From an uncultured Gammaproteobacteria bacterium (lineage in GTDB: Bacteria > Patescibacteriota > Patescibacteriia > Magasanikbacterales > UBA922): a DNA stretch of 64,000 bases. This document shows positions 11,212 to 42,893 of this stretch, piece by piece. A program made the translations under genes and the position numbers. Position 1 is the first letter of the stretch. The number at the start of each line of letters is the position of its first letter. A model generated the notes under the pieces. The model did no database searches, was not told the DNA's origin, and saw nothing but the letters and a program-made list of their open reading frames with translations. The stretch covers positions 428,585 to 492,584 of the forward strand of contig CAYMVY010000001.1 of NCBI GenBank assembly GCA_964394405.1, given 5' to 3'.

Positions 11212-11312
11212 AAACGCAAAACTTAAAGTTCAAAACTTAAAACTATAACTAAAAATTCAAAACTAGCTGTTGAATTTAAAGTTTTTAGTTTTGAACTTCA
11301 CGCTTTTCCCCA
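11212..11312. repeat. AT-rich palindromic intergenic repeat (family copy 2)
   Basis: aaagttcaaaacttaaaactataactaaaaa is near-identical to a 31-nt block at 24517-24547. Confidence 0.6.
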
Positions 11313-11341
11313 GTTTGCATTGACAAATTGGGGTTTTTTGT
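11313..11341 (+). promoter_or_regulatory. consensus sigma70 promoter TTGACA-N17-TATACT in front of high-GC ORF A
   Basis: ttgaca 11313-11318, tatact 11336-11341. Confidence 0.5.
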
Positions 11342-11425
11342 ATATACTCTCGCGCATACCTGTATCCTAGATAGGAAAGGTATGTACCGTCAACACGCGA
11401 AAGCGTTTACATAATCGGGGAACCC

Positions 11426-11677
11426 ATGCCTTCTTTCCATATTCCCAAGAATGCCCGCATCCTGCCGAATGGTAGGACCGAGATCGCCAAGCACGTCGAG
11501 TACGGCCAGGACCAGCGCGGTCGAGACCGCATCTTCGTGGGGTCGACTTCCTTCACGGTCGCCGAGGCCCTCAAGTCCGGCTTCATCTCGTCGGAGCGCG
11601 ACCGCAACGCCACGGGTGGTGGACTCCACTACCACCCGAACAGCGGGGTCGCGCGGGGCCGTGTGTCCACGGTCTGA
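11426..11677 (+). CDS. hypothetical protein, high-GC cassette ORF A (83 aa)
   Basis: Codons almost all end in G/C, in stark contrast to neighbours. Preceded by a 5' UTR with small hairpins (catacct...aggtatg; acgc-gaaa-gcgt). Confidence 0.55.
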   Translation: MPSFHIPKNARILPNGRTEIAKHVEYGQDQRGRDRIFVGSTSFTVAEALKSGFISSERDRNATGGGLHYHPNSGVARGRVSTV

Positions 11678-11914
11678 GTCTGGCTTCTAGCCGACGCCCA
11701 TCGGCTCTGTGCCAGGAGACGCAGGCAGCCGCCTATCGCGACTGTCCTGCGTCTCAACAAATTCAAAAAACCTCTCGAATCACGCGATGAATCTCATCTT
11801 ATATAGATATGGGAGATATCGCGAGGAGGACGAGAGGTTTTTTGTTTTCAGACTTGATTTTTCCCTCATTTTAGGTTAGTGTAGCTATTACACCTGGTTC
11901 AGGGAGGACCATCA

Positions 11915-12124
11915 ATGACCATTTTAGCGTGGAATGCTGAGAAGAAGTGCTGGAACATTGTTCCTGAAGCGGCCAAATCGACCACTTCGATCGAGACAAG
12001 TGCCGACATCAGGCCGGCCATGGAGAAACTGTTCCGGAATCCGGACGAGCGGCAACGAGCCGTGATCAAACTGTTCGCCGAATTCGCCAAAACGGAGAGT
12101 CTGCCGATCCAGCTCGCCGTATAG
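11915..12124 (+). CDS. hypothetical protein, high-GC cassette ORF B (69 aa)
   Basis: GGGAGG RBS 6 nt upstream of ATG. GC-rich coding. Followed by the hairpin aaactacctgc-aaatca-gcaggtagttt. Confidence 0.5.
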   Translation: MTILAWNAEKKCWNIVPEAAKSTTSIETSADIRPAMEKLFRNPDERQRAVIKLFAEFAKTESLPIQLAV

Positions 12125-12234
12125 CGGGTCATATGGGAAGTGACAATCCCAGCGCCAGGTTTGGTTGGAGATACTTCGGTATCTCTGGCCCTACCCCTAC
12201 CCCAAACTACCTGCAAATCAGCAGGTAGTTTTAA

Positions 12235-30787: not shown

Positions 30788-33250
30788 ATGTTAATTTCGT
30801 ACAAGTGGCTCAAACAATACGTTGATTTACCAGATTCACTCAGCCCCGAAGAATTGGGAAATGCGCTTACACTCTCAACTGTTGAGGTTGAGGGAATTCA
30901 CCATCAGGCAAAAGCGTTTGATGGGATTGTAGTTGGTGTTGTCAAAAAAGTAAAAAAACACGAAAATGCAGATACACTTAAAGTATGTGAAGTAGATGTG
31001 GGCACAGAAATACTTCAAATTGTGTGTGGCGGATCAAATGTGCGTGAGGGCATGAAAGTCATACTAGCAAAAGTGGGTGCTAAGGTACTGTGGCATGGTG
31101 AAGGAGAATTGGTGGAACTTACTCCAACCAAAATCCGCGGAGTCGAGTCACATGGAATGATTTGTGGTGCAGATGAAGTAGGGCTTCTTGACCTGTTTCC
31201 AAAGAGTGAAGAAAAAGAAATTGCTGATTTGTCAAAAATAAAAGCAAAGGCTGGGACACCGATCGCAACTGCTCTTGGCTATGATGATGTGGTAATTGAA
31301 ATTGACAATAAGTCTATCAATCATCGTCCGGATTTGTGGGGCCACTATGGAATGGTCAGAGAAGTTGCTGCCAAGTACCATAAAAAGTTAGCTCCCTATA
31401 AGGTAGCTGAGATAAAAGAAGGTAGTGAACAAAAAATTAAAGTTTCAATTGAAAATGCAGTAGATTCAATGAAATATAGCGCAATTGTAATGGATGGAGT
31501 AGTAGTCGGACCATCGCCTGAGAAATTACAACAACGTCTTCGCGCCGTGGGTATTAAGCCGATTAACAATATTGTTGATATTACTAATTATGTCATGTGT
31601 GATTTGGGACAGCCGATGCATGCTTTTGATAAGGAAAAAGTAAAAGGTCAAAAGGAAAAAGTAGAAATACAGGTGAGAAGAGCGAAGGTAGGAGAAAAAT
31701 TAGTTACTATTGATGGGAAGGAGAGAGAGTTGAGTGAAGAAATGCTCGTGATTGCAGATAGTGAAAAGCCACTTGCAATAGCGGGAGTGATGGGTGGTAA
31801 AGAAACGGAGATTACCAATGCAACAACTTCAATTATTTTTGAGTCAGCTCATTTTAATGCAGCGTTGATAAGAAAAACTACTACCAAATTGGGACTTCGG
31901 ACCGATGCGTCTGCACGATTCGAGAAAAGTTTGGATCCGAATAATTGTGCATATGCGCTCAAGCGCGCGGTAGAATTGGTTTTAGAAGTTTGCCCGAATG
32001 CGCGTGTGGTGAGTGGTATTGCTGAAAAAGGAAAGATAGAGACATTCAGAGGTCCGATAGTAGTACCAAAAGAATATATCAATAAAAAAATTGGAATGGA
32101 GATTGGAACCAAAGAATGCGTGCGAATTTTGGAAAATTTAGGATTCGGTGTTACGGTTTTTGGAAAAAAAGAAGGGGAAACGCTTAAAGTCGAAGTACCC
32201 AGTTGGCGCGGAACCAAAGATATTTCAATTCCTGAAGATATTGTTGAGGAAATCGCTCGAATGTATGGGTATGGGAATATTGAGACCACGCTCCCAATGT
32301 TTTCGATTACTCCGCCGGAGCGAAATGAAATAAGAATGACTGAGCGAAAAATTCGCACCACACTCTCAGGTCCGCTTGGCTTTACTGAAACTTTGAACTA
32401 CTCATTTGTCTCTCCGCAACTAGTAGAGATGCTTGAGCTCGATCTCTCGAACCATATCGAACTCGATAATCCGATTGCAAGTGATCGTCCACTGTTACGT
32501 CGCTCGTTGCTTCCAAATTTGATTGAAGTTATTGAAAAAAATAACCACCGACAAGAAGATATTTGTATCTATGAAATTGGAAAAGTGTACATAGTAGAAG
32601 AGCCGGGACATCGAGTGGCTGAAAAAAGTGACGAATTATTGCCCCGTCAGGATTCCATGCTAGGTATTATGTATTCTAGTAAGAATGAGACAAAACCATT
32701 TTTTACCGTTGCAGAAGCAGTACGAGAAATTGGTCCCAAGCTAGGAATTGATATCGTAATTGAGCCAGGTATTACTGAAGCCCCACATATACATAGTGGT
32801 AGGTATGGAAAAGTGATGGTGGGGAGCGATCAGGTGGGAGAAGTATATGAGATACATCCGAGAATTCAGGAAAAACTTGGGTTGGCGAATCGTGTAAGTT
32901 ATGCGGAGATAAATCTTCGAATACTTTCTGAGTACGCCACGATTCGATCTTCGTACAAATCGCTTTCACCATACCCGGCAGTCGCGCGAGATATTGCATG
33001 TGTAGTGTCTACCACCGCACTGCATCGAGATATTCATGCAGCGCTTAGCGGGGCGCATCCGCTCATCACCTCAGTGGTATTATTTGATGTGTATGAAGGA
33101 AAAAATGTTGGTGAAAAAAAGAAAAGTGTTGCATATCACATCACCTATCAATCATATGACCATACGCTTGAGACCGCAGAAATCGATGCAGCTCACGCCA
33201 CAGTAGAAAAAATTCTCAAAGAAAAATTCAAAGCTGAAATTCGGAAGTAA
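30788..33250 (+). CDS. pheT: phenylalanine--tRNA ligase beta subunit
   Basis: 820 aa. tRNA-binding OB domain, B3/B4, B5 and anticodon-binding FDX-like C-terminus. Confidence 0.9.
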   Translation: MLISYKWLKQYVDLPDSLSPEELGNALTLSTVEVEGIHHQAKAFDGIVVGVVKKVKKHENADTLKVCEVDVGTEILQIVCGGSNVREGMKVILAKVGAKVLWHGEGELVELTPTKIRGVESHGMICGADEVGLLDLFPKSEEKEIADLSKIKAKAGTPIATALGYDDVVIEIDNKSINHRPDLWGHYGMVREVAAKYHKKLAPYKVAEIKEGSEQKIKVSIENAVDSMKYSAIVMDGVVVGPSPEKLQQRLRAVGIKPINNIVDITNYVMCDLGQPMHAFDKEKVKGQKEKVEIQVRRAKVGEKLVTIDGKERELSEEMLVIADSEKPLAIAGVMGGKETEITNATTSIIFESAHFNAALIRKTTTKLGLRTDASARFEKSLDPNNCAYALKRAVELVLEVCPNARVVSGIAEKGKIETFRGPIVVPKEYINKKIGMEIGTKECVRILENLGFGVTVFGKKEGETLKVEVPSWRGTKDISIPEDIVEEIARMYGYGNIETTLPMFSITPPERNEIRMTERKIRTTLSGPLGFTETLNYSFVSPQLVEMLELDLSNHIELDNPIASDRPLLRRSLLPNLIEVIEKNNHRQEDICIYEIGKVYIVEEPGHRVAEKSDELLPRQDSMLGIMYSSKNETKPFFTVAEAVREIGPKLGIDIVIEPGITEAPHIHSGRYGKVMVGSDQVGEVYEIHPRIQEKLGLANRVSYAEINLRILSEYATIRSSYKSLSPYPAVARDIACVVSTTALHRDIHAALSGAHPLITSVVLFDVYEGKNVGEKKKSVAYHITYQSYDHTLETAEIDAAHATVEKILKEKFKAEIRK

Positions 33251-33274
33251 TTAATTCCTAATTAGGAGCCTGTT

Positions 33275-34462
33275 ATGAAAATTATTAAAGTGTTCGTGTG
33301 GTCAATTATCGTCACGCTTACTTTTGTATGCGCATTTTTTCTTCAATTTCTAATTATTAATCCTACAACAGGTCACAAAAATACAGTCGTTGTCACCGAT
33401 TCAGTGTCTGTAGAGGCGGATGAAAAGAAATCAGGGATATGGGCTCTACAATGGAAAGATGTTGATGGAAATACGACAGTACTCGCGACTTCGACAGAAA
33501 AAAATCTTCTTGGGTATAGCGAGACAGTGCAGTATCAAAAAAATGATAAAAATTACATTTTTTTCTATGCAGGTGCATATGGAGCAGATAATTTTAAGCT
33601 CTATTTGTTTGATGTTAATACTAAAACATTGAGTACTATTCTTGATCCAGGTAAAGGAGGTATGGAGCCTGATCAGATTGAGATAATCAACGATACTTTA
33701 TATTTCTCTTTTCTATCATATGGACCGGAGGATGCAGGAGGTCTCTATTACATAGATCTTCTTGACCCAACTTTGAAAATCAATAAAATAATTACTTCTT
33801 ATAGTGTTGATTACTATGTAGTGCATAAATGGGGACACTACTGGGTAAGAGAATCATACGCAAGTGGAGGAAGTGGTTATGAAAGTTACCGTTTGTTTGA
33901 TACTTCTTCAAAAGAAATTGGCAATACTACGTACGGAGATACTAATGGTGAAAGTTTGATCGGGGTTACCAAAGATAATAGGGCCATCTTGTTTTCTGCA
34001 GGATGGGATATATTGATGCGTCCGTTGGGTGAGGAAAAAAATGACATCCTACTTTTTGATTCAGAAGATCTACTTGCTGGCACCACTCCATTCTATAGAG
34101 AAGACGACAATGATTTGTATTTGATTGGAAAAGAAGTCTGGATCTATGATTTTGATACCAAAGAGACTAAAAAAATACAGCCAGTAAATTTTTATGCTGA
34201 AGGAGAATTGTCAGGTTTTAGGGTATTGGAATTTTTGAAAGGAAATAAAATTTGTTTATTTAATGCAATGGATATGCGACGACCCACGTTCTATGCTATC
34301 TTGGATATGAATAATACTCCCGGGATCATTGATCAAGGTCATCGCAGGGTAGATTTTAGTGAAGAAACATGCCAGTCAGAGGAGGGGCAGTTACGAAGAA
34401 ATCAAGCAGAGAAACCCTCGCAAGAGCTGTCGCCAAATGTACAAATTGTGCACATACCGTAA
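33275..34462 (+). CDS. hypothetical membrane-anchored extracytoplasmic protein
   Basis: 395 aa. N-terminal TM helix, then beta-rich sequence. No family recognised. Confidence 0.5.
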   Translation: MKIIKVFVWSIIVTLTFVCAFFLQFLIINPTTGHKNTVVVTDSVSVEADEKKSGIWALQWKDVDGNTTVLATSTEKNLLGYSETVQYQKNDKNYIFFYAGAYGADNFKLYLFDVNTKTLSTILDPGKGGMEPDQIEIINDTLYFSFLSYGPEDAGGLYYIDLLDPTLKINKIITSYSVDYYVVHKWGHYWVRESYASGGSGYESYRLFDTSSKEIGNTTYGDTNGESLIGVTKDNRAILFSAGWDILMRPLGEEKNDILLFDSEDLLAGTTPFYREDDNDLYLIGKEVWIYDFDTKETKKIQPVNFYAEGELSGFRVLEFLKGNKICLFNAMDMRRPTFYAILDMNNTPGIIDQGHRRVDFSEETCQSEEGQLRRNQAEKPSQELSPNVQIVHIP

Positions 34463-34465
34463 ACT

Positions 34466-34498
34466 AAAATCGCCCTCCAATTCAGAGGGCGATTTTTA
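34466..34498 (+). terminator. rho-independent terminator
   Basis: aaaatcgccctc-caattca-gagggcgatttttaattt. Confidence 0.6.
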
Positions 34499-34606
34499 AT
34501 TTATATAATTGTTGAATGGGCGAAGGGGCGGGCTTGTGTAGCGCCGTGCAACACTCTCGTGCTGTAGCACGTGGATGATACTAAAAGTAGCCTATTTGTC
34601 AATGCA

Positions 34607-34635
34607 TTGACATTTAGGCATTTTTATGCTAACGT
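34607..34635 (+). promoter_or_regulatory. candidate promoter TTGACA-N17-(TGc)TAACGT for Ig-like surface protein gene, preceded by a GC-rich leader element
   Basis: ttgaca 34607-34612. Same ttatgcTAnnnT extended -10 architecture as other promoters in the window. Confidence 0.35.
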
Positions 34636-34663
34636 TCCCTTATAAATACATAACCAAACGTAT

Positions 34664-35860
34664 ATGAAAAAACCTCTTATTTTAGCCATTTTTGCTCTAT
34701 CTGTGGGGGCAGGATTCGGTATGTCTGTGCCTGCACACGCTGCTGACAACGTGAATTTTATTACCGTATCTTCATGCGAACAGGTAGGAAGTGATATTCG
34801 TATCAGTAGAAATAATGGCCCAAAGCACATCCTCACCAGCTCATGTCGGGATGCAGGGCATGGAAAACGTCTCTATAAGATGACGTGTATTTCAAGTAAA
34901 CAATATAAAGTAGAATGGACAACACCAACAGCATGTACCGGAGGATCTACGACCTCAGATACGATAGCGCCAAGTGTTTCTATGAGCGCAAACAAATCAA
35001 CGGTGAGCAACAATGAGAGTGTTACACTTACAGTCACTGCATCTGATGCAAAAGGTGTGACAAAGATTGAAATCCGCGAAGGATCGACTGTGGTAAAGAC
35101 CTGCTCAGGTTCTAATCTTACTTCATGCGCGCATACCTTCGTAGCAGTTGGGCAACAGAATACAGAGAGAGCTCAGACTTTTACCGCAAAGGCATATGAT
35201 GCTGCGGGGAATGTGGGCACCTCTTCATCAGTCATTATCCGCACACGCGCAACGAATGTCGATACTACAAGACCAGAAGTAACTATTTCTGCGAATAAGG
35301 CTACTATACAAACAGGCGAGAAAGTGACTATTACGACACATGCAACTGATACGAGTGGTATCTCAAAACTTGAAATCTATCAAAACGGAGTCAAAGTAAA
35401 GACATGTGAGAATAGAAAAAGTTGTTCGTATACTACTGAATTCAGCCAGTCTACGGTGCCCAATTCAGCGACCTATTCATTCTATGCAAAGGCTATTGAT
35501 ATGAAGGGTAATGTGCAGCAGTCAAATACCGTACAAGTGACTGTTACCAATGTGTATACCCTGACCGCGAGTTTGTCTCAAGTCAATTATACGGTTAATT
35601 CTATCCCCTGGGTACGAGCACGAGCTCATGCAAACGCATCTGAAGGTATTGCTCGTATAGAAATTTATGGAATCAAAAATGGAACTACACACCTAGGGAA
35701 GCGATGTAGCTGGAATACTAAGCCAAAGAGTCAATCATGTGCTGTAGAATATCCACGAAGTACTGTCGAAGCATATCTTCCATTCGCTGTATATGCAAAA
35801 GTGACTGATGTGAAGGGTCATACGTATATCACACCAGTTACCACCGTGACCACACTTTAA
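34664..35860 (+). CDS. secreted surface protein with 3-4 tandem Ig-like (bacterial Ig / Cys-pair) domains
   Basis: 398 aa. Signal peptide ending AHA-AD. About 95-aa repeats (TxxPxVxISANKxT...TxTATDxxGxxKIEI..NG..VKTC...C..T). Confidence 0.65.
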   Translation: MKKPLILAIFALSVGAGFGMSVPAHAADNVNFITVSSCEQVGSDIRISRNNGPKHILTSSCRDAGHGKRLYKMTCISSKQYKVEWTTPTACTGGSTTSDTIAPSVSMSANKSTVSNNESVTLTVTASDAKGVTKIEIREGSTVVKTCSGSNLTSCAHTFVAVGQQNTERAQTFTAKAYDAAGNVGTSSSVIIRTRATNVDTTRPEVTISANKATIQTGEKVTITTHATDTSGISKLEIYQNGVKVKTCENRKSCSYTTEFSQSTVPNSATYSFYAKAIDMKGNVQQSNTVQVTVTNVYTLTASLSQVNYTVNSIPWVRARAHANASEGIARIEIYGIKNGTTHLGKRCSWNTKPKSQSCAVEYPRSTVEAYLPFAVYAKVTDVKGHTYITPVTTVTTL

Positions 35861-35882
35861 TTTTATTTGAACATCAACTTAT

Positions 35883-35912
35883 ACACACCCGTCTTCGGGT
35901 GTGTTATTTTTG
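35883..35912 (+). terminator. rho-independent terminator
   Basis: acacacccg-tctt-cgggtgtgt then T-run. Confidence 0.6.
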
Positions 35913-36006
35913 CAATACAAAATTATGGTATACTAAACCTGTTAAAGTAATAGTTATTCTTTTTTGACTTTTTACTTTTACCTTTTAACTTTGTTCCACC
36001 TGTTAT

Positions 36007-36333
36007 ATGTTTGAAACAAGTCGCGACTTATTATATGTAGTACTCTCACTTGCGATTATCTGGTTTACCGTATTTTTGTGCTGGCTTATGTATCAGGCAG
36101 GACGCACACTTCGAAATGTGAACAGAATCGTCGAGGCGGCGCTAGAAAAAATGGAAATGATTTCTACTGCAGTGGAATTTATACGAAAAAAAGTAGATAA
36201 TATGTCGAGTCATCTAGGAGCGGTTTCAGGAATTGCATCAGGGTTATTTGAAAAATTTGTGGTAAGTAAATTGTCTGACAAGCTCGATGAGAAGCTCGCG
36301 GGAAGGAAAGTGAAGTCGAGGAAAGAAGATTAA
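36007..36333 (+). CDS. small hypothetical membrane protein
   Basis: 108 aa. One N-terminal TM helix, coiled-coil C-terminus. Confidence 0.45.
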   Translation: MFETSRDLLYVVLSLAIIWFTVFLCWLMYQAGRTLRNVNRIVEAALEKMEMISTAVEFIRKKVDNMSSHLGAVSGIASGLFEKFVVSKLSDKLDEKLAGRKVKSRKED

Positions 36334-36372
36334 TTTTACCATCCTGTTTAGGGAGGGATTAAAAAAATTCAT

Positions 36373-36927
36373 ATGAGGAGGGGAACAGCAATCTTTATTT
36401 TTATTGGATTGTTTTTTGTTTGTGCAATTAGTGGAGTAGCGTATTTTTTAAGTCTCGAAAATACGCGCACTTCTGAAAGGAATGAGGTGCCGATTGTTTT
36501 AGGAGTACTTCCCGAGGGAGTAAGTGTTATTGAAAAAGAGGGAAATAGAATATTGAGAGACGAGCGAGTGGGATATGAGATGGAAATTCCTGATGATACA
36601 CGTTTGAAAACAGAGGGGAGTAGAATACTATTGTATAGTTCAGAGTCCGATGTGCCGGTTTTGGGTGGAATAAACATTTTCAAAAGCAATAATAATTTGT
36701 CATTGGAAGAGTGGGTAGAAGCGCTCCATCAGGAGATCGGATTTTTGTATTATGACGAAAGAGAAAAAATAACCATTAATGAAGTCGAAGTAATCAAAAT
36801 AAAAGTTGAGGGTGAGATTGAAACATTTGAATATTATTTCAAAAAAGATAATGCAATTGTTGGTATCAGTTTACCAGCACATGCTGATTTTAATCACTAT
36901 ATACAAAGTATTCGAATACTTAGATAA
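36373..36927 (+). CDS. hypothetical membrane-anchored protein
   Basis: 184 aa. N-terminal TM helix. Confidence 0.45.
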   Translation: MRRGTAIFIFIGLFFVCAISGVAYFLSLENTRTSERNEVPIVLGVLPEGVSVIEKEGNRILRDERVGYEMEIPDDTRLKTEGSRILLYSSESDVPVLGGINIFKSNNNLSLEEWVEALHQEIGFLYYDEREKITINEVEVIKIKVEGEIETFEYYFKKDNAIVGISLPAHADFNHYIQSIRILR

Positions 36928-36944
36928 CTTTTAGTTTAAAACAT

Positions 36945-39900
36945 ATGAAAAGGAGGGGGCTAAGGGTTTTTTGGTATATTATTTTTTGTGCAGTGTTGAG
37001 CTGTGGAGGTAAAAGTATAAGCGTAGCGGCCAACAACACGGATCAGTTTTTGCAGTTGCCGATCGCGTCAAGTATAAAGGTATTACAAGGCTGGATCTAC
37101 ACCATGCCAGTGAATGGAAATCTCAATCATGGAGCCATGGATTATGACTGTGAGCCGGGTGAGTCTATTTTTGCTGCATCAGATGGAATTGCAATGTCCT
37201 CAAGACAAGTGAGTGCAGTTTCGGGATTTGGATATGGAAATTTTGTTTTTATAAAACATGATAATGAATACGCGACGCTATACGGGCATCTACACAAGCC
37301 AAGCGAAAAGATTATCGTGTATCCAAGTAATCAAAAATCAAATACACATTATTCCGAATGGGTTAGGGTACAGAAAGGAGACTACATTGGCGAGTGTGGC
37401 ACTTCAGGGGCGGATAATGTACATCTTCATTTTGAAGTGACAACTGGGAAATACGCAGTAGGTCGTGTTGATAGCTACGACCTCTACAAAACCAAACAAT
37501 TTTACCCGCCCAATGCTTCATATACTGCGTTGGGAGAAAAACATCTGTGGATGAGTGATCCTCCACAATATCTGGAAACAAAAATTGTTGAAAATCAAGT
37601 AAACGAGATGGTCACAGAAAAGAAAAGTATTTTGGATACGATCAAAGATTGGTTTGCACCAAGAGAAGTAATATCACCAGAGAGCAAAGAACGGGATACC
37701 TTAGTCACAGAAGAACTAGACTTATCTTTTGTAGATAAAAAAATATCCTTACGTGCACATCCTACGGAGAATATGCATGTAATAGTACAAGCAAAAAATA
37801 TTGGTTCTAGAGTCTGGAAAAAACAGGAAATCTCGCTCAATGTGATTGGTGGGCGAGAAGCAAATTCGATCTTCCGTCATCCTACCTGGGTTACTGATCT
37901 ACGTCCTGCATTGTTGGATAATACAGAAGTAAAACCAGGTGAAATTGGTACCTTCAGCGTACGTATCAAAAGTTTGAGTGAAGGGTCGTACACAGTGCGA
38001 CTAATGGCTGTAGAAGTAGGTACCTGGAAACAGATTGGAGCGGAAAGTATTGAGATCTCTATTGGTATAAGCGAAGAACCGCAAGAAACGATTGGGGAAA
38101 CACCAACATCTACGTCTAAAACAGAAAAAGGTAATCCTTTTGAAGGAATCGTTCGGGGAATAAAAGAGTTTACAGAAACGGTAGTAGATAAAGTGGTAGA
38201 TGTAATTAAATCAGTGCCAAGATTTTTGGGGGGTGGTGGAGGGGGATATTCTTCATCAAATGAACATAGTCAGTCTGTAGTAGAAAATCCTGTTGCAGAT
38301 CCGATTGTAATAGAGGAGCAGAATGTAGCAGAGGAAAATACAGAAGTTGAAAGTGTTCCTGAAATACAGAAAGAAGTCATACTCAATGAAATCGCATGGT
38401 CTGGATCAAGTGGTGCATGCTCGGATCATGAATGGATTGAGTTATATAATACATCGAGTACTGAGCAATCGCTTGAGAATTGGGTACTCGATATTCATAC
38501 GATAGACTCTACGAGCACAGTTATGTTAACTGGATCGATTGGAGGAAACGGATACTATCTGATCTCGCATGCAGGTGTATTTCCACCGTCTACTATCCCA
38601 GATCTGGTTATACTCCCGAATGTACAGATTCCAGATAATGGTGCAAGGCTCGTATTAAAAAATCAAGATGGAGAAATTGTTGATGAAATAGATCAAAGGG
38701 AGGGATGGCTCGGTGGAGATACGGGACGATTTCCGCGCACGCTGGAACGTGCATCATCGCATCTGTTGGATGGGGTAAATACTCGTTGGGAAACCAGTGA
38801 TTCAGTACGATACGGAGTTGCTTCGGGAGTGTGTGGGCAAATTACGGGAAGTCCAGGTATGGCAAATGAGGGATATGCATATGTATCAGACAATACCCTC
38901 GGATTTTATACTGATCAAGCTGGTGAAATTGTATTATCTTCAGAAGAAAATCCATATTTATTTTCAACGTTCAGCATACCTCAGGGAGAAAAAGTGAGTA
39001 TTAGTCGAGGAACAGTTTTCGCGGGTATTAGCTCTGACGCACGTATAGATGTAGGAGGGGAGTTGGTAGTACAAGGAAGTGAGAGTGAACCTGTAATTAT
39101 TACTTCTCGAAATGATACAGAATACATTACTTCGACTTCGTTGTGGAATAATTTATTTACCGGACAGACACCGCAAGCTGGGGATTGGCAACATATTACG
39201 ATTCATAGTGAAGGAAAACTCACTATTACTCATGCACAGATTCGGTATGGGGGGAATAGATATGGTGCAAGTATCGCATGCCTTGCATGTGCAAGATCGC
39301 AAGTGATTTCTAATCACGGTGGAAGCATATTATTATCGCATGTGGAGATAAGTAATGGATATGAATCGGGTAGTAGTGGCAAACCTGATTCTTTGATTTA
39401 CTCAGACGGCGGGAGTGTAGTGCTTGATCAATTGCATCTGCATCACGGTAAACGCGCATTGCATAGTGAGGGAAATGCAGAAATTAGCACCCGATCACTT
39501 ACCATGCATGATTTTGATTTGACTGATAAAGTTGTATTTTTTCAAGACAGAATGCCGACTGTGTGGGAGGATATTATATTTGGGGAAAATTCTCCGACAT
39601 ACGCGTACAGCCCTGCGTTAGTAGTCACTAGTTCATATATATTTAGCACCGGCACTCAGTTTCAATTTAGTACCGTGTCTGTGAGTCGGGGCGCAACGCT
39701 TACGATTAATGAAGGAAATTTGTATGCAACAGAAATAAAAATTCATGGAAATTTGAATATGCAGGGTGGAGCAACAAAAAATGAAATATCAGGCGGACCG
39801 TCTTCTTCAAGTGTATTTTCGTATATTTTGTTTTCACCTAGTTCGACGGGTGTATTATCACAGGTACGGTTGCGAGGTGGTGGGTATAGTTCTGCAAATC

Positions 39901-40289
39901 CCTTTACATCCACGCGCCCATATATGCTCTGGATTGATGGAGCATCTGTCACGATTTCCAATTCTGAATTAATAGATTCCCGGCGTCCAGGTGGAATTAT
40001 GGTTGTGAGAAACGGGAACGTAGTAGTACGAGATTCTGAGTTAGGGTGGTACACAAATTATAATAAATTATCTAGCTGGAAAGAGTATGGAATTGTAGGA
40101 ACTACTCAATCAAAAATTCATATTGAAAACCTAGATTTTCGAAAAATGGATTATGTTATAGAACTTAGTCAGGGGGCTACGACGACCTATGCTCGTATGA
40201 GCAAAGACAATTTTATTGAGCTATATAAACCTGAATTAAATCAGAAAAATTGGTTTCCACAGAATATGTTTCCATTTCAGTTGTGGTGA
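36945..40289 (+). CDS. giant secreted protein: N-terminal M23 (LytM-type) peptidase + lamin-tail domain (LTD) + long parallel beta-helix-like repeats
   Basis: 1114 aa. Signal peptide. M23 motifs (HxAxD...GECGTSGADNVHLHFEV). LTD signature (EIAWSGSSG...EWIELYNTS...NWVL). C-terminal Gly/Ser/Thr/Asn-rich beta-helix-like repeats. Confidence 0.75.
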   Translation: MKRRGLRVFWYIIFCAVLSCGGKSISVAANNTDQFLQLPIASSIKVLQGWIYTMPVNGNLNHGAMDYDCEPGESIFAASDGIAMSSRQVSAVSGFGYGNFVFIKHDNEYATLYGHLHKPSEKIIVYPSNQKSNTHYSEWVRVQKGDYIGECGTSGADNVHLHFEVTTGKYAVGRVDSYDLYKTKQFYPPNASYTALGEKHLWMSDPPQYLETKIVENQVNEMVTEKKSILDTIKDWFAPREVISPESKERDTLVTEELDLSFVDKKISLRAHPTENMHVIVQAKNIGSRVWKKQEISLNVIGGREANSIFRHPTWVTDLRPALLDNTEVKPGEIGTFSVRIKSLSEGSYTVRLMAVEVGTWKQIGAESIEISIGISEEPQETIGETPTSTSKTEKGNPFEGIVRGIKEFTETVVDKVVDVIKSVPRFLGGGGGGYSSSNEHSQSVVENPVADPIVIEEQNVAEENTEVESVPEIQKEVILNEIAWSGSSGACSDHEWIELYNTSSTEQSLENWVLDIHTIDSTSTVMLTGSIGGNGYYLISHAGVFPPSTIPDLVILPNVQIPDNGARLVLKNQDGEIVDEIDQREGWLGGDTGRFPRTLERASSHLLDGVNTRWETSDSVRYGVASGVCGQITGSPGMANEGYAYVSDNTLGFYTDQAGEIVLSSEENPYLFSTFSIPQGEKVSISRGTVFAGISSDARIDVGGELVVQGSESEPVIITSRNDTEYITSTSLWNNLFTGQTPQAGDWQHITIHSEGKLTITHAQIRYGGNRYGASIACLACARSQVISNHGGSILLSHVEISNGYESGSSGKPDSLIYSDGGSVVLDQLHLHHGKRALHSEGNAEISTRSLTMHDFDLTDKVVFFQDRMPTVWEDIIFGENSPTYAYSPALVVTSSYIFSTGTQFQFSTVSVSRGATLTINEGNLYATEIKIHGNLNMQGGATKNEISGGPSSSSVFSYILFSPSSTGVLSQVRLRGGGYSSANPFTSTRPYMLWIDGASVTISNSELIDSRRPGGIMVVRNGNVVVRDSELGWYTNYNKLSSWKEYGIVGTTQSKIHIENLDFRKMDYVIELSQGATTTYARMSKDNFIELYKPELNQKNWFPQNMFPFQLW

Positions 40290-40307
40290 AGATTGATACA
40301 ATCAAAA

Positions 40308-40380
40308 AAACCGTTCGCTATTCCTCCATACATGTTTCCAAAATATGTTAGAAACATATGTGGTGTGCGAACGGTTTTTT
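40308..40380. terminator. long bidirectional terminator hairpin between convergent genes
   Basis: aaaaaaccgttcgc ... gcgaacggtttttt with an inner palindrome acatgtttc...gaaacatatgt. Confidence 0.5.
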
Positions 40381-40445
40381 GTTACGCAGACCACGCTCAT
40401 GTGGGGGTCCGCGAATAGAAATCATGTCTCCTCCAGTATTGTTGA

Positions 40446-41135
40446 TCAGCCGATCTGCATGGCGATGAGGGCCTTGGCACGCTGTCGGTCGACGAACTGC
40501 TTGCCGTGTCCGATCTCGGTGTTGACGGGGACACCATCCTTGCAGAATGGACACTCATCCTCGGTCCAGTTGTTGAGGTCGAGATCGTAGAGTGTCGCGA
40601 GGAAGGGCACGCCGAGTGTATCAGCGGTGACCTTGCTCATGCTCCGATTCACGATCGCAGCGACACCGAGGACCGTGCCACCGAGGGCGCGCACTGCATC
40701 GATGACTTTCTTGACCGACTGCCCAGTCGTGATGACGTCTTCTGCCACGAGAACGTCGTTGCCAGAGACGAGGGACTGGTAGCCGCGATTGAACACGAAC
40801 GACCCATCTGCCGTCTTCTCAGCGAAGACGGAATGAATCGGGAGATTCGTGCGGATGTACTGGCGCAGGTGAAACCCGAGCCAGGGGGAGAGGATCGCTC
40901 CTCCCATGGCAGGGCCGAGCACGACCTGGGGAACCTGCTTCAGTTGGGTGGTTGTGGCGAGGTGTCTGATGCACTCCTCGGAGAGCGCCTGACCCATGAG
41001 AGTCAGGAGGTCTGGCCTGGTGAAGAGTTTGTTCTTATCGACGTAGATGTCACCATGGCCACCCGCCGCATAGACGAAGTGTCCGGTGGTGATGGCGCCG
41101 ATCGCCTGGATTCTCTCTTGAGCACTCTGTCTCAT
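40446..41135 (-). CDS. type I phosphoribosyltransferase, orotate-PRTase-like (high-GC cassette)
   Basis: 229 aa. PRPP-binding VLVAEDVITTGQS. C-terminal WTEDECPFCKDGVP resembles PyrE-like proteins of high-GC lineages. GC-rich codons. Confidence 0.7.
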   Translation of the reverse strand: MRQSAQERIQAIGAITTGHFVYAAGGHGDIYVDKNKLFTRPDLLTLMGQALSEECIRHLATTTQLKQVPQVVLGPAMGGAILSPWLGFHLRQYIRTNLPIHSVFAEKTADGSFVFNRGYQSLVSGNDVLVAEDVITTGQSVKKVIDAVRALGGTVLGVAAIVNRSMSKVTADTLGVPFLATLYDLDLNNWTEDECPFCKDGVPVNTEIGHGKQFVDRQRAKALIAMQIG

Positions 41136-41269
41136 GTGTATCTCCCTATTGTGTGTGGAGGCATGGATGCCCGCCTTCTATATACGTTATTTTGTACTAT
41201 TCGTCAATATATATACCAGCTATGGTATACGTTTTTAGTTATAAATTAGCCAAATTTACTCAGTTAGGA

Positions 41270-41298
41270 TTGACATTTCTATAAAAATATGCTACACT
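41270..41298 (+). promoter_or_regulatory. consensus sigma70 promoter TTGACA-N17-(TGc)TACACT
   Basis: ttgaca 41270-41275, tacact 41293-41298. AAGGGGG RBS precedes ATG 41366. Confidence 0.5.
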
Positions 41299-41365
41299 GT
41301 TCCGTTCTAAGTAGCTGGGCAACGAGCCTTCCTACCTCTAGGACATCAACCTTAAGGGGGTGTTC

Positions 41366-41731
41366 ATGACTGCACTGAAGGCGAAGACCTATTTCGTTCC
41401 GTTCGCCATCTCGCACTATCTCGAGTTCTACGAGCGCGTGTTTGCGGGTCAGATGATCCGCGTCTACATCTACAGCCTCGGACTTCGCTGGGTGCTCCCG
41501 AGAGAGCCCAGGAACAACGAGAAGGAGAAGAAGCTCGAGTTCGAGTTCCAACTCGTTCCCGAGCCCGGAGAGACGACCCGAGCTCGGAACCGGTGGTTCG
41601 AGGGCGAGTTCCTGTGGGAGACCTGTGACGGTTTCCTGAAGGTGGAAGCCGAGCTACTCCGCCCTCTCGGGAAGGTCGAGCTCGCTCCGTGGATCGCCAA
41701 AGAGGCGACCGTGGAGCACAGACACGTCTGA
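41366..41731 (+). CDS. hypothetical protein, high-GC cassette ORF C (121 aa from MTALKAK)
   Basis: GC3-saturated codons (AAG GCG AAG ACC TAT TTC GTT CCG ...). No family recognised. Confidence 0.55.
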   Translation: MTALKAKTYFVPFAISHYLEFYERVFAGQMIRVYIYSLGLRWVLPREPRNNEKEKKLEFEFQLVPEPGETTRARNRWFEGEFLWETCDGFLKVEAELLRPLGKVELAPWIAKEATVEHRHV

Positions 41732-41809
41732 GAGCTCCAGCTCTCTCTGACCCGACGCGTGCGACATTGTCCCTGGACAATCGATCGCACACGCGTCGGG
41801 GACAATCTA

Positions 41810-41846
41810 CCCCGCCTTTCGCGAAAGGCGGGGTTTTTGTTTTTTC
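41810..41846 (+). terminator. rho-independent terminator after ORF C (preceded by a ~50-nt palindrome cgacgcgtgcga...tcgcacacgcgtcg)
   Basis: ccccgcctttcgcgaaaggcggggtttttgtttttt. Confidence 0.6.
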
Positions 41847-41954
41847 AAATAAAAAATCCTTTATTTCAAGGATGCTATATGTATCTGGAATGTGGGACAC
41901 GGTGCAACACACAGCACTCTCGAGCGAGCGTGTGGGTTGCACCGTGGTACGGCG

Positions 41955-42297
41955 TCAGTGGCTCGGGGTAGAGGAATTCGAACCTTTCCTGCTCCACACG
42001 ATGTTGTGGTACCCGGTGCAGTATCCGTGGCAGACCACCCTCGGCCCGCCTACCCTAGGTTGGGCGCTGGCCTTTTTGTGGTACACCACCTCACCCGTGA
42101 GCGCACCAGGACAGAGCTCCCAATCGGGATGGTAGGTCCCGTCGGGAGAAATCGTGGCGAGACCAGAGATGGTGCGTCCGTTCTCCTGGAAGAGAACTGC
42201 ATTGTGCAGACCCTCCCTGAAGTGGCCAGTGATCATGAGATGGTCGTCCTTTCCGGCGACACTAGTCTCGGGCTGGATCATGAACTTGTTTGTCATG
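41955..42297 (-). CDS. hypothetical protein, high-GC cassette ORF D (start at MTNKF inferred from codon-usage break)
   Basis: From MTNKF downstream the codons are C/G-ending, while the upstream 36 codons of the ORF-track ORF are AT-rich. Competing + strand ORF 41892..42410 is Arg/Ser-rich, suggesting antisense artefact. Confidence 0.4.
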
Positions 42298-42461
42298 TTG
42301 ACGGTATCCCTCCTATGTGTGTTTCCGCCTCCCAGACGGATGTTGAGCTGATAACCTTGGGCAAGGTCAGGGAGATAAAAACGACAACTAGTATCGTCTC
42401 TACTCACTGATCTGTTATATACCAGGAAACATGAACGCCCTCCACAAGGAGGGCGTAATAA

Positions 42462-42537
42462 TGGTGACCCCGGTGGGGATCGAACCCACGACCATTGGCT
42501 TAAAAGGCCACTGCTCTACCAGCTGAGCTACAGGGTC
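42462..42537 (-). tRNA. tRNA-Lys (anticodon TTT), CCA encoded
   Basis: Reverse complement GACCCTGTAGCTCAGCTGGTAGAGCAGTGGCCTTTTAAGCCAATGGTCGTGGGTTCGATCCCCACCGGGGTCACCA. Followed (3') by hairpin cgccctcc-acaa-ggagggcg. Confidence 0.85.
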
Positions 42538-42581
42538 ATTAAATTGGTTTGTCACTTACTCTTCTATTATAAGTCGATAAG

Positions 42582-42634
42582 ACCAGCTGCCCGCCCGCCG
42601 AAGCTTTAGCGTAGGCGGGAGCTACAGGGTCATT
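42582..42634 (-). other. partial copy of tRNA-Lys 5' end (13+7 nt) interrupted at the D-loop by a 30-nt GC-rich hairpin insert
   Basis: Minus strand AAT-GACCCTGTAGCTC-[CCGCCTACGCTAAAGCTTCGGCGGGCGGGC]-AGCTGGT-cttatcg versus tRNA AAT-GACCCTGTAGCTC-AGCTGGT-agagcag. Confidence 0.5.
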
Positions 42635-42893
42635 TGTAATGAGTCAATGACGAATATACTAACCTAAGAATATAAAAAAGTCAAGCAAACTATAGCATAA
42701 AAAAGGAAAGTATAGTGAAGCTTCGAATTTTTGTTGTGAGAATGAAAATTGTATCAGTTCTGGCTACGAGAGGGGTGTCTCATTGTAGTTTGGGTAAGTG
42801 AGCATATATCAGTTCTATGTTTGGAATTTTGTGTGTCATGTACGTGAGTATGTTGCTCGTTTTTCTTTTTCACGATACACTATAGACATAGTA

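What the first reader, a model, noticed from the sequence alone, without database searches (positions are those of the whole stretch)
40380..42461. High-GC three-gene cassette (PRTase-like, two unknown ORFs) inserted directly 3' of tRNA-Lys
**Location.** Between the convergent terminator after the giant M23/LTD gene (40308-40380) and the tRNA-Lys 3' end (42462), about 2 kb is GC-rich with GC3-saturated ORFs.

**Contents.** The block holds an orotate-PRTase-like phosphoribosyltransferase (229 aa, PRPP motif VLVAEDVITTGQS, CPFC tail). It also holds a 121-aa unknown ORF behind a consensus promoter (41270) and followed by a long palindrome plus terminator. A third unknown ORF (41955-42297) sits at the tRNA-proximal edge.

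**Interpretation.** Placement at the 3' side of a tRNA gene is the classic position of integrated genomic islands, but I see no integrase and no convincing direct repeat of the tRNA 3' end at the distal border. CPR-type genomes usually lack de novo nucleotide synthesis, so a foreign-composition PRTase is notable. PRTase domains also occur as effectors in some anti-phage systems, so the function should not be assumed to be pyrE.
Basis: partly seen in the sequence, partly recalled or inferred. Interest (0 to 1): 0.7.

Follow-up and report, generated by a model that had tools for sequence, protein, structure and literature searches.

The report
Swappable GC-rich gene islet beside tRNA-Lys
A 2-kb stretch of foreign-looking, GC-rich DNA next to a tRNA gene in a tiny symbiotic (CPR) bacterium is a small gene-swapping hot spot that carries a working pyrE-like nucleotide enzyme and two orphan genes; it is a recognisable kind of flexible genomic islet, not a classic integrase-borne island or a defence system.

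Summary
Bases 40380-42461 have 56-61% GC against 42% for the window. Three ORFs there have GC3 of 0.73-0.80, against about 0.31 in the flanking genes. The genome is a Candidatus Magasanikbacteria (CPR).

The block is not one cassette. It is three separate transcription units, each a GC-rich ORF with AT-rich regulatory signals. They fill an interval between a conserved M23/LTD gene and tRNA-Lys whose content differs in every relative recovered.

- **No island machinery:** there is no integrase, no att repeat, and no recombinase in the 64 kb.
- **The middle gene sits in a conserved slot.** The slot is a promoter, a locus-specific 50-nt hairpin and a terminator. Its coding content is swapped among at least three gene types, even between strains about 99% identical.
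- **Sharp identity breakpoints** point to homologous recombination through conserved flanks.
- **The PRTase** is under purifying selection (dN/dS about 0.2). It belongs to the Thermus-type PyrE clade, and three of the four outside relatives whose context I read are pyrF-linked. PADLOC finds nothing.

One thing is unexplained: orthologues with saturated synonymous divergence keep GC3 at 0.7-0.8 inside AT-rich genomes. My verdict is a new member of a known kind, of moderate interest.

The parts
40305..40380 (.). Long bidirectional terminator hairpin shared by the convergent M23/LTD gene and the PRTase gene
   Evidence: Arms of 14 nt are 100% complementary and an inner palindrome is present (I7 and I2). 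L093 carries the same element downstream of its PRTase, with most columns identical by eye in the alignment.
40446..41135 (-). PyrE-like type I phosphoribosyltransferase, 229 aa, GC3 0.76
   Evidence: PF00156 scores 33.6 bits, above its cut-off. TIGR01367 pyrE_Therm scores 126.7 bits over profile positions 4-182 of 187, below the 150.25 cut-off. The best solved structure by sequence is the OPRTase 4paw, E 2e-9. dN/dS is 0.23 and 0.20. The residues invariant across the clade are kept.
41179..41207 (-). Putative PRTase promoter (TTGACG-17-TATATA on the minus strand)
   Evidence: I read this from the sequence. It is conserved as TTGACT-17-TATATA in L093. The consensus scanner did not report it because the last base of the -10 hexamer is A.
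41232..41313 (+). Slot promoter region: conserved AAATTAGCCAAATTT box, TTGACA-17-TACACT (41270-41298) and conserved leader ...CGTTCTAAGT
   Evidence: Promoter scan. The region is identical in L001. It is 81% identical in L005, which has no PRTase. The leader is conserved in L093.
41366..41731 (+). ORF2, 121-aa orphan gene occupying the slot, GC3 0.80
   Evidence: No Pfam, NCBIfam, PHROG or PADLOC family matches. A full HMMER search of 1.84 billion representatives finds one homologue besides itself, P0014 at 49% identity. P0014 occupies the same slot in L098 and L099. L001 has an unrelated 110-aa ORF here instead.
41751..41808 (+). Conserved locus-specific hairpin (CCCGACGCGTG...CACGCGTCGGG with an inner ATTGTCC/GGACAAT stem) plus the linker GACAATCTA
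   Evidence: Inverted repeats I23 and I13. The 101-nt stretch that includes the hairpin and the terminator folds with z -7.3 here, -9.4 in L098 and -8.6 in L004. Reading the sequences, the first outer-stem pair is C-G here and T-A in L004. The covariance model finds one copy per locus and none elsewhere in 395 kb.
41809..41846 (+). Intrinsic terminator of the slot transcript
   Evidence: Eleven-pair stem followed by a T-run. The stem is replaced by fully compensatory sequence in L098 and L004.
41846..41946 (-). 3' region of ORF3: a 16-nt-arm hairpin (41898-41946) and a terminator-like hairpin (41856-41873) followed by a T-run on the minus strand
   Evidence: Inverted repeat I5 is 94% complementary. 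The rest I read from the sequence. The segment is 99-100% identical in L001.
41955..42296 (-). ORF3, 113-aa orphan gene at the tRNA-proximal edge, GC3 0.73, GGAGGG 12 nt upstream of the ATG
   Evidence: The frame is supported by GC3, whereas the overlapping + strand ORF has GC1>GC3. The word-indexed protein search, phages and plasmids give no homologue. L004, L005 and L098 have no similar DNA. The coding status is inferred, not shown.
42435..42456 (-). Hairpin immediately 3' of tRNA-Lys (a weak terminator)
   Evidence: The sequence at this position differs in L004, L005 and L098, so similarity to relatives ends exactly at the tRNA 3' end.
42462..42537 (-). tRNA-Lys(UUU), the conserved right-hand anchor of the variable interval
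   Evidence: ARAGORN and Rfam. It is 100% identical in L004, L005 and L098.

Best explanation
The block is a small flexible genomic islet in a Candidatus Magasanikbacteria (CPR) chromosome. It lies between two conserved anchors, the 3' end of a giant M23/LTD gene and tRNA-Lys. In that interval, accessory genes with high-GC codon usage are gained, lost and replaced.

**Structure.** It consists of three independent transcription units, not one inserted element.
1. A PyrE-like PRTase with its own promoter and a shared bidirectional terminator.
2. An 'expression slot': promoter, short leader, one small ORF, a conserved 50-nt hairpin and a terminator. The slot's ORF is exchangeable.
3. An orphan ORF next to the tRNA.

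**Turnover (inferred).** Alleles move by homologous recombination through the conserved flanks and the conserved slot ends. The likely route is natural transformation, not integrase-mediated insertion at the tRNA.

**PRTase function (inferred).**
- It is probably a working orotate or nucleobase phosphoribosyltransferase that makes a nucleoside monophosphate from PRPP.
- It would serve as a salvage or auxiliary-metabolism gain for an organism that cannot make nucleotides de novo.
- I do not think it is a defence effector.

**Shown versus inferred.**
- Shown: composition, gene set, variability, breakpoints, purifying selection and family assignment.
- Inferred: the recombination route, the substrate, and expression of ORF2 and ORF3.
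For: **Composition and ORFs:**

**Organism and synteny:**

**Variable content of the M23 to tRNA-Lys interval.**
- L005 has the slot only, with a 100-N scaffold gap exactly at the slot ORF.
- L004 has a different 110-aa slot ORF plus a SnoaL_2 gene.
- L098 and L099 have an ORF2 homologue plus the SnoaL gene.
- L093 has a PRTase (66% aa identity) plus the start of an L001-type slot ORF.

**Same-species swap.** Window against L001 gives:
- M23 end, 100% identical;
- PRTase, 98.0%;
- slot, 45%, i.e. unrelated;
- the rest, 99-100%.

**Recombination breakpoints.**
- Between L098 and L099 the M23 3' end is 85.7% identical. Everything downstream of the M23 stop codon is 99.7-100% identical.
- The window's hairpin and terminator segment is 89% identical to L005 over 110 nt. 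The M23 C-termini of the same two genomes are only 63% identical in protein.

**No mobility genes or repeats:**. DprA, RecG and RadA are present.

**Hairpin.** It is stable, single-copy and specific to this locus.

**PRTase.**
- dN/dS is about 0.2.
- All 13 clade members hit TIGR01367 best.
- Three of the four outside relatives whose context I read are pyrF-linked.
- The conserved catalytic and PRPP residues are retained.
- PADLOC gives nothing.
Against: - No pyrF or any other pyrimidine gene lies in the 64 kb, so OMP would have no visible fate here.
- The PRTase scores below the PyrE equivalog cut-off and has a clade-specific 10-residue insertion.
- The fourth outside relative whose context I read, P0007, is not next to pyrF.
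- Homologous recombination explains allele exchange. It does not explain how an unrelated ORF first came to lie precisely between the leader and the hairpin.
- Persistent GC3 argues against simple recent transfer followed by amelioration. It is 0.70-0.80 in orthologues whose dS is 1.2 to 2.5.
- No donor was found.
- Only short contigs were available for most variants.
- ORF3 has no second, independent full-length copy.
Confidence: 0.6

Rival explanations
1. The block is the decayed remnant of a classic tRNA-targeting integrative island. An integrase-bearing element inserted at the 3' end of tRNA-Lys and later lost its integrase and its distal att repeat.
For: - The block lies at the tRNA 3' side, and similarity to relatives stops exactly at the tRNA 3' end.
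- L005 carries a 14-nt direct repeat of the tRNA-Lys 3' end, 177 bp from the tRNA. So this tRNA has been an integration target in the clade.
- ORF3 is unique to this species and abuts the tRNA.
Against: - No integrase lies anywhere in the 64 kb.
- No tRNA-derived repeat rises above chance.
- The three genes are separately bounded and are present or absent independently in relatives.
- The slot unit is ancestral to the locus, because it is present in L004, L005 and L098, which lack the PRTase and ORF3.
Confidence: 0.15
2. The promoter-ORF-hairpin unit is a site-specific cassette-exchange site resembling an integron. The conserved palindrome would be the recombination site, and the recombinase would be encoded elsewhere.
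For: - The swap boundaries are precise. The window and L001 diverge right after ...CGTTCTAAGT and re-converge at the first base of the hairpin.
- At least three ORF types precede the same hairpin.
- The outer stem keeps a pair through a compensatory change, C-G here and T-A in L004.
Against: - No recombinase lies in the window.
- The hairpin lacks the attC core sites (RYYYAAC...GTTRRRY), as read from the sequence.
- The hairpin is single-copy, not arrayed.
- The cassette has its own promoter.
- The neighbouring PRTase is 2% diverged between the window and L001, while the outer flanks are 100% identical. That fits a longer homologous-recombination tract better.
- The element lies in the transcript and sits directly upstream of the terminator, so an RNA role such as a 3'-end stabiliser or protein-binding site explains its conservation equally well.
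Confidence: 0.1
3. The PRTase and the variable small protein form an anti-phage defence or toxin-antitoxin-like pair in a defence hot spot. The PRTase would be the effector.
For: - The two genes are divergently transcribed in the window, L001 and L093.
- The locus is hypervariable and full of orphan genes, as defence islands are.
- From my own knowledge, PRTase domains occur as effectors in some retron systems.
Against: - PADLOC gives no hit for any of the three proteins.
- No RT, ncRNA family or nuclease partner is present.
- The slot exists without the PRTase in L004, L005 and L098. The PRTase keeps its partner position while the partner is swapped for an unrelated protein.
- The closest outside relatives are mostly housekeeping, pyrF-linked pyrE genes.
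- Purifying selection and retained PyrE-clade residues are consistent with an ordinary enzyme.
Confidence: 0.07
4. The block is an assembly chimera, or contamination from a high-GC organism.
For: The composition jumps abruptly.
Against: - The junctions between GC-rich ORFs and AT-rich host sequence recur in independent assemblies from other runs: L092, L001, L093, L098 and L099.
- GC-rich ORFs alternate with AT-rich promoters and terminators every few hundred bases.
Confidence: 0.01

Closest known systems
Flexible (replacement-type) genomic islands or hypervariable regions next to tRNA genes in streamlined bacteria. Horizontally acquired islands are already reported in Patescibacteria (PMC12455944), and genomic islands are known to be rich in orphan genes (PMC1285063).
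   Same: - Conserved flanking anchors, with one flank a tRNA.
- Different gene content in close strains, atypical composition and many orphan genes.
- Exchange tracts with sharp identity breakpoints.
   Different: - It is very small, at 2 kb and three genes.
- Every gene carries its own host-style promoter and terminator.
- One position is a conserved promoter/hairpin 'slot'.
- GC3 stays high after saturating divergence, so it does not ameliorate.
Thermus-type orotate phosphoribosyltransferase PyrE (NCBIfam TIGR01367). The closest solved structure by sequence is the OPRTase 4paw.
   Same: - Full-length match to the family profile.
- The PRPP motif, the conserved Lys and Arg residues, and the C-terminal CPxC...GVPVNT tail are present.
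- Three of the four nearest outside relatives examined lie next to pyrF.
   Different: - It scores 126.7 bits, below the 150.25 cut-off.
- It has a clade-specific insertion of about 10 residues after residue 55.
- It is not linked to pyrF here.
- It sits in a variable islet of a CPR genome and has foreign codon usage.
tRNA-targeting integrative genomic islands
   Same: It lies directly 3' of a tRNA gene, has foreign composition, and is present or absent among relatives.
   Different: It has no integrase and no att direct repeat, and it is not a single unit.
Integron gene cassettes with attC sites
   Same: A single small ORF followed by an imperfect palindrome, with the ORF exchangeable at fixed boundaries.
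   Different: - No IntI integrase and no attC core sites.
- The cassette has its own promoter.
- The palindrome stays constant while the ORF changes.
- There is one copy per locus.
Defence systems with PRTase effectors (for example retron-associated PRTases; from my own knowledge)
   Same: A PRTase-fold protein in a variable locus beside a small unknown protein.
   Different: No RT or msr-msd RNA, no PADLOC match, and a PyrE-clade sequence under purifying selection.

Membership tests
Type I phosphoribosyltransferase (Pfam PF00156) | Profile match above the gathering score, including the acidic PRPP-binding motif followed by TTG | tested here: met
   33.6 bits against a cut-off of 26.3, over residues 63-167. 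VLVAEDVITTGQS is in the translation.
PyrE, Thermus type (NCBIfam TIGR01367 equivalog) | Whole-protein score at or above the curated cut-off (150.25 bits) | tested here: not met
   126.7 bits, E 8e-37, over profile positions 4-182 of 187. It is the best family for all 13 clade members. The best E-value among them is 5e-44.
PyrE, Thermus type (NCBIfam TIGR01367 equivalog) | Genomic link to the pyrimidine pathway (pyrF, OMP decarboxylase) | tested here: not met
   No OMPdecase or other pyr gene occurs among the roughly 45 ORFs of the window. The relatives P0003, P0004 and P0006 are adjacent to OMPdecase. The rest of the genome was not available.
PyrE, Thermus type (NCBIfam TIGR01367 equivalog) | Orotate-specific phosphoribosyl transfer | not testable with these tools
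   This needs an enzyme assay or complementation. Only conservation of the clade-invariant residues could be shown.
tRNA-targeting integrative genomic island | Integrase (tyrosine or serine recombinase) in or next to the island | tested here: not met
   Pfam scans of all large ORFs of the window found none.
tRNA-targeting integrative genomic island | Direct repeat of the tRNA 3' end at the distal border | tested here: not met
   Pattern searches with up to 3 mismatches find only the tRNA itself. The best local alignment equals the shuffled controls.
tRNA-targeting integrative genomic island | Position at the tRNA 3' side, atypical composition, absence from relatives | tested here: met
Flexible genomic islet / recombination hot spot | Conserved flanks with different gene content among strains and species, and identity breakpoints at the borders | tested here: met
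   Five locus variants were recovered. Breakpoints are quantified.
Integron gene cassette | IntI integrase, and attC with RYYYAAC...GTTRRRY core sites | tested here: not met
   No integrase was found. The ends of the hairpin are CCCGACGC...GCGTCGGG, with no core sites.
Known anti-phage defence systems (PADLOC-DB v2) | Match of any component to a defence-protein HMM | tested here: not met
   No family matches at E<=1 for the PRTase, ORF2 or ORF3.
Known RNA families (Rfam 15) | Covariance-model match for the hairpin or the GC-rich stretches | tested here: not met
   Only tRNA reaches its threshold. All other matches in 40200-42800 fall far below their gathering scores.

The most novel reading that the evidence does not exclude
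Magasanikbacteria may keep a pool of small accessory genes whose GC-rich codon usage (GC3 0.7-0.8) is actively maintained inside AT-rich genomes (GC3 about 0.3). These genes would be plugged into dedicated expression slots and swapped there. Each slot would be delimited by a host-type promoter and a conserved hairpin plus terminator.

This would be a cassette-exchange system without a linked recombinase. The high GC3 would be maintained by GC-biased gene conversion at recombination hot spots, by selection on translation, or by repeated resupply from a GC-rich partner organism or element.
Probability: 0.12. Interest if true: 0.7.

Novelty: new member of a known kind. Interest (0 to 1): 0.42.

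Why it matters
CPR bacteria have tiny genomes and depend on other cells, so how they gain genes is central to their biology.

- **Gene turnover without mobility genes.** The locus shows at base-pair resolution that a Magasanikbacterium turns over small accessory genes at a fixed hot spot. It does so without any mobility gene, apparently by recombination of taken-up DNA.
- **A metabolic gain.** One of the gains is a nucleotide-metabolism enzyme, in a lineage thought unable to make nucleotides.
- **A practical warning.** In the only catalogued copy of the locus, gene calling put wrong-strand ORFs over the PRTase and ORF3. Genes like these may therefore be missing from protein catalogues.
- **A possible larger result.** If the persistent GC3 contrast proves general, it would bear on how base composition is set in bacteria.

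Tried and rejected
- **Metagenome scan for the hairpin.** The pattern GATCGCN{4,5}GCGTCGGRGACAAT gave nine hits. All were chance matches inside high-GC coding DNA with no hairpin. The viral collection gave none.
- **Homologue searches.** The word-indexed search found nothing for ORF3 and only the query itself for ORF2. A full HMMER search found one ORF2 homologue. tblastn of ORF2 and ORF3 against phages and plasmids found nothing. The PRTase found only distant pyrE genes there, at 24-32% identity.
- **Structure prediction.** AlphaFold2 on the single sequences of ORF2 and ORF3 gave mean pLDDT of 36, so I ran no fold search.
- **Family libraries.** Pfam, NCBIfam, PHROG and PADLOC were empty for ORF2 and ORF3.
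- **Known non-coding RNA.** Rfam gave only sub-threshold noise.
- **Dispersed REP-like repeat.** I rejected this. The covariance model finds one copy per locus in 395 kb.
- **Related hairpin at 11.7 kb.** I suspected one, but the model does not support it. Its only match nearby, at 11953-12013, has E 0.12.
- **att repeat.** A sensitive local alignment finds nothing above the shuffled controls.
- **Homology among slot proteins.** Only a weak 20-residue similarity links the L001 and L004 types (E 0.018 in a ten-sequence database). ORF2 is unrelated to both.
- **Literature.** I found nothing specific on GC-rich islets or pyrE in Patescibacteria. PMC12455944 gives general background on horizontal transfer in the phylum.
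Full report

Yes. In 400-nt windows the GC content rises from about 0.36-0.42 to 0.56-0.61 between 40400 and 42400. It falls back at the tRNA. The window mean is 0.42 with sd 0.047.

| ORF | Coordinates | Length | GC1/GC2/GC3 |
|---|---|---|---|
| PRTase | 40446-41135 (-) | 229 aa | 0.62/0.41/0.76 |
| ORF2 | 41366-41731 (+) | 121 aa | 0.61/0.38/0.80 |
| ORF3 | 41955-42296 (-) | 113 aa | 0.54/0.48/0.73 |

The flanking M23/LTD gene and pyk have GC3 of 0.31-0.32, and every other large ORF of the window lies between 0.29 and 0.46. The overlapping antisense ORFs have the GC1>GC3 pattern of shadow frames.

- tRNA-Lys(UUU) at 42462-42537(-);
- the TTGACA-17-TACACT promoter at 41270;
- the palindrome and terminator after ORF2;
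- the long bidirectional terminator at 40305-40380.

The block is not an assembly artefact. A Logan contig from SRR12404947 (L092) is 100% identical over window 31366-42518. A contig from another run, SRR8893623 (L001), carries the same junction between the AT-rich M23 gene and the GC-rich PRTase.

**2. What organism and what locus?**

The closest pyk loci (77-80% protein identity) and a further dozen belong to Candidatus Magasanikbacteria or other CPR MAGs. The rest of the window is housekeeping. It encodes a Mur ligase, DprA, Pth, Der, RecG, RadA, ClpB, PheS/T, RseP, PPDK, IF3, L20, SmpB, tmRNA and others. It holds no integrase, transposase, reverse transcriptase or pyrimidine-pathway gene.

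The order M23/LTD gene, tRNA-Lys(-), pyk is conserved. What lies between the M23 stop codon and the tRNA 3' end differs in every relative recovered.

| Locus | Content of the interval |
|---|---|
| L005 | About 480 bp. Same promoter box (AAATTAGCCAAATTT...TTGAC), then exactly 100 N (a scaffold gap), then the same hairpin and terminator as the window. No PRTase, no ORF3. |
| L004 | About 1.3 kb. Promoter, a different GC-rich 110-aa ORF, a covarying version of the hairpin plus terminator, then a SnoaL_2-domain gene. |
| L098, L099 | Promoter, a 113-aa homologue of ORF2 (49% identity, the only homologue in 1.84 billion representatives), hairpin and terminator, then the SnoaL gene. |
| L093 | A PRTase 66% identical in protein, with the same terminator, the same divergent promoter and leader, and the start of an L001-type slot ORF. 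|
| L001 | Same species as the window. Identical to it except that ORF2 is replaced by an unrelated 110-aa ORF. The two diverge after the leader ...CGTTCTAAGT and re-converge at the first base of the hairpin. |

So the 'three-gene cassette' is really three units with independent histories.

**3. How is it exchanged?**

I found no att repeat. Pattern searches with up to 3 mismatches find only the tRNA. A local alignment of the tRNA against the block scores no better than shuffles. No recombinase lies in the 64 kb.

The identity profiles instead show recombination tracts.
- Between L098 and L099 the last 453 nt of the M23 gene are 85.7% identical. Everything downstream of the M23 stop codon is 99.7-100% identical.
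- Between the window and L001 the M23 end is 100% identical, the PRTase 98.0%, the slot unrelated, and the remainder 99-100%.
- The window's hairpin and terminator segment is 89% identical to L005 over 110 nt. The M23 C-termini of these two genomes share only 63% of residues.

I infer homologous recombination through conserved flanks. The tRNA is 100% identical in all loci. The window encodes DprA, RecG and RadA. From established knowledge, DprA loads RecA onto transforming single-stranded DNA. This fits uptake by natural transformation, but that step is inference.

**4. The slot and its hairpin.**

The hairpin at 41751-41800 has an 11-bp outer stem and an inner ATTGTCC/GGACAAT stem. The linker GACAATCTA and an intrinsic terminator follow it.
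- The 101-nt stretch that contains the hairpin and terminator folds far better than shuffles: z -7.3 here, -9.4 in L098 and -8.6 in L004.
- Reading the sequences, the first outer-stem pair is C-G in the window and T-A in L004, a change on both sides that keeps the pair. The MAFFT alignment used misaligned L004's 5' arm, so its outer-stem counts do not show this.
- The terminator stem is replaced by fully compensatory sequence in L098 and L004.
- A covariance model finds exactly one copy per locus and none elsewhere in 395 kb of Magasanikbacteria DNA.

So the hairpin is not a dispersed REP-like repeat. It belongs to the locus, not to the ORFs.

It has no attC core sites. It lies in the transcript directly upstream of the terminator. 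My preferred reading is therefore a 3'-UTR RNA element (a stabiliser or a protein-binding site) that also provides homology for allele exchange. I cannot exclude a role at the DNA level.

The slot has held at least three gene types: the ORF2 type, the L001/L093 type and the L004 type. The last two are perhaps distantly related, sharing 45% identity over 20 residues.

**5. The PRTase.**

It matches PF00156 above threshold. It aligns end to end with TIGR01367, the Thermus-type PyrE, at 126.7 bits. That is below the 150.25 cut-off. All twelve relatives found also hit TIGR01367 best.

I read the gene neighbourhood of four outside relatives (40-46% identity). Three of them (P0003, P0004, P0006) lie directly next to OMP decarboxylase, one of these inside a purine and pyrimidine gene cluster. 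The fourth, P0007, does not.

The protein keeps every residue that is invariant or nearly invariant in the clade. These include the PRPP motif, K34, K107, R117-G118, R164 and the C-terminal CPxC...GVPVNT tail. So the 'CPFC tail' is a family feature, not a novelty. It has a 10-residue insertion shared only with its two closest relatives.

dN/dS is 0.23 against L001 and 0.20 against L093. The best solved structure by sequence is an OPRTase, 4paw, at E 2e-9. PADLOC finds nothing and PHROGs gives only a weak generic PRTase hit.

I conclude that it is a functional enzyme of PyrE descent. Orotate is the default substrate, but it is unproven. No pyrF is visible, although only 64 kb could be examined.

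**6. ORF2 and ORF3.**

Both are orphans with no family, no usable structure model and no phage or plasmid match. ORF2 is supported as a gene by its homologue in the same slot of another species. ORF3 rests on GC3 periodicity, a GGAGGG box and a downstream terminator-like hairpin only.

The gene caller behind the public catalogue called wrong-strand ORFs of 247 aa and 172 aa over the PRTase and ORF3 in L092. This is why the PRTase itself is missing from that catalogue.

**7. What remains unexplained.**

The GC richness is not a fading trace of a recent transfer.
- The PRTase pair, window against L093, has dS 1.18 yet GC3 of 0.76 and 0.70.
- The ORF2 pair, window against L098, has dS about 2.5. 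This is as saturated as the adjacent M23 gene (dS 2.4), yet GC3 is 0.80 and 0.72 against 0.32 and 0.30.
- The promoters, leaders and terminators between the ORFs are AT-rich, and in the window-L093 alignment they look better conserved than the coding DNA (identity of the non-coding parts was judged by eye).

Similar GC3-rich orphan ORFs, many with signal peptides, are scattered through other Magasanikbacteria loci. Two more sit in this window at 11.3-12.2 kb and 63.3-64.0 kb.

Possible causes are repeated resupply from a GC-rich gene pool or partner, GC-biased gene conversion at recombination hot spots, or selection on codon usage. None could be tested here.

**8. Verdict.**

It is partly wrong: the block is not one cassette, not an integrase island, and not a defence system.

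This is a new member of a known kind, a small flexible genomic islet at a tRNA-flanked hot spot. It has two uncommon traits worth following up: the conserved promoter/hairpin slot and the maintained GC3 contrast. Interest 0.42.

Noticed in passing
window 11310-12220: A second GC-rich patch lies between recG and radA. It has a consensus promoter (ttgaca...tatatact, about 11320-11350). Its ORFs at 11426-11677(+), 83 aa, and 11915-12124(+), 69 aa, have GC3 of 0.82 and 0.70. Palindromes and long terminators follow them. The 83-aa ORF has no Pfam match; the 69-aa ORF was not scanned.
   Followed up: partly
window 62940-64000: A third GC-rich patch. Two near-consensus promoters (about 62949 and 63108) precede a GC-rich ORF from 63460 that runs off the window end. 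It encodes a coiled-coil protein with a C-terminal hydrophobic segment.
   Followed up: partly
window 42620-42634 (and 42526-42540): An exact 15-nt direct repeat of the 5' end of tRNA-Lys (AGCTACAGGGTCATT) lies 94 nt upstream of the tRNA. It sits inside the tRNA's leader, downstream of a TTGACT-17-TAGTAT promoter, next to a GC-rich hairpin. The same arrangement is visible in L005 and, less exactly, in L003. Its origin is unknown.
   Followed up: partly
L005 9493-9506 and 9271-9370: A 14-nt direct repeat of the tRNA-Lys 3' end lies 177 bp from the tRNA and brackets a small structured segment, like the scar of an integrative element. Separately, a 100-N scaffold gap falls exactly where the slot ORF should be.
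   Followed up: no
L098 vs L099 (Logan SRR12762283 / SRR34217543): There is a sharp recombination breakpoint at the M23 stop codon. The sequence is 85.7% identical upstream of it and 99.7-100% identical over the whole islet downstream.
   Followed up: yes
L003 187-2900 and L004 6882-9557: In two close relatives a P-type cation ATPase gene of about 890 aa lies between tRNA-Lys and pyk. It is absent from the window and from L005, so the other side of the tRNA also varies.
   Followed up: no
L092 9141-9884 and 10527-11045 (= window 40506-41249 and 41892-42410): The public gene calls over the PRTase and ORF3 are wrong-strand ORFs of 247 aa and 172 aa. GC-rich genes in this AT-rich genome are mis-called and so are missing from protein catalogues.
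   Followed up: yes
L006 9431-9847; L007 11687-12412 and 19173-19796; L013 17561-18070 and 20007-20372; L021 14494-14964: GC3-rich orphan ORFs (GC3 0.75-0.92), several with signal-peptide or lipoprotein-like N-termini and many cysteines, are scattered through other AT-rich Magasanikbacteria loci, often next to pyk. The phenomenon is clade-wide.
   Followed up: partly
window 40381-40445: The 3' UTR of the PRTase is conserved in L093 and contains GGAGGAG followed by ATG. This opens a 25-codon ORF in the window but only a 7-codon ORF in L093, so it is probably not coding.
   Followed up: no
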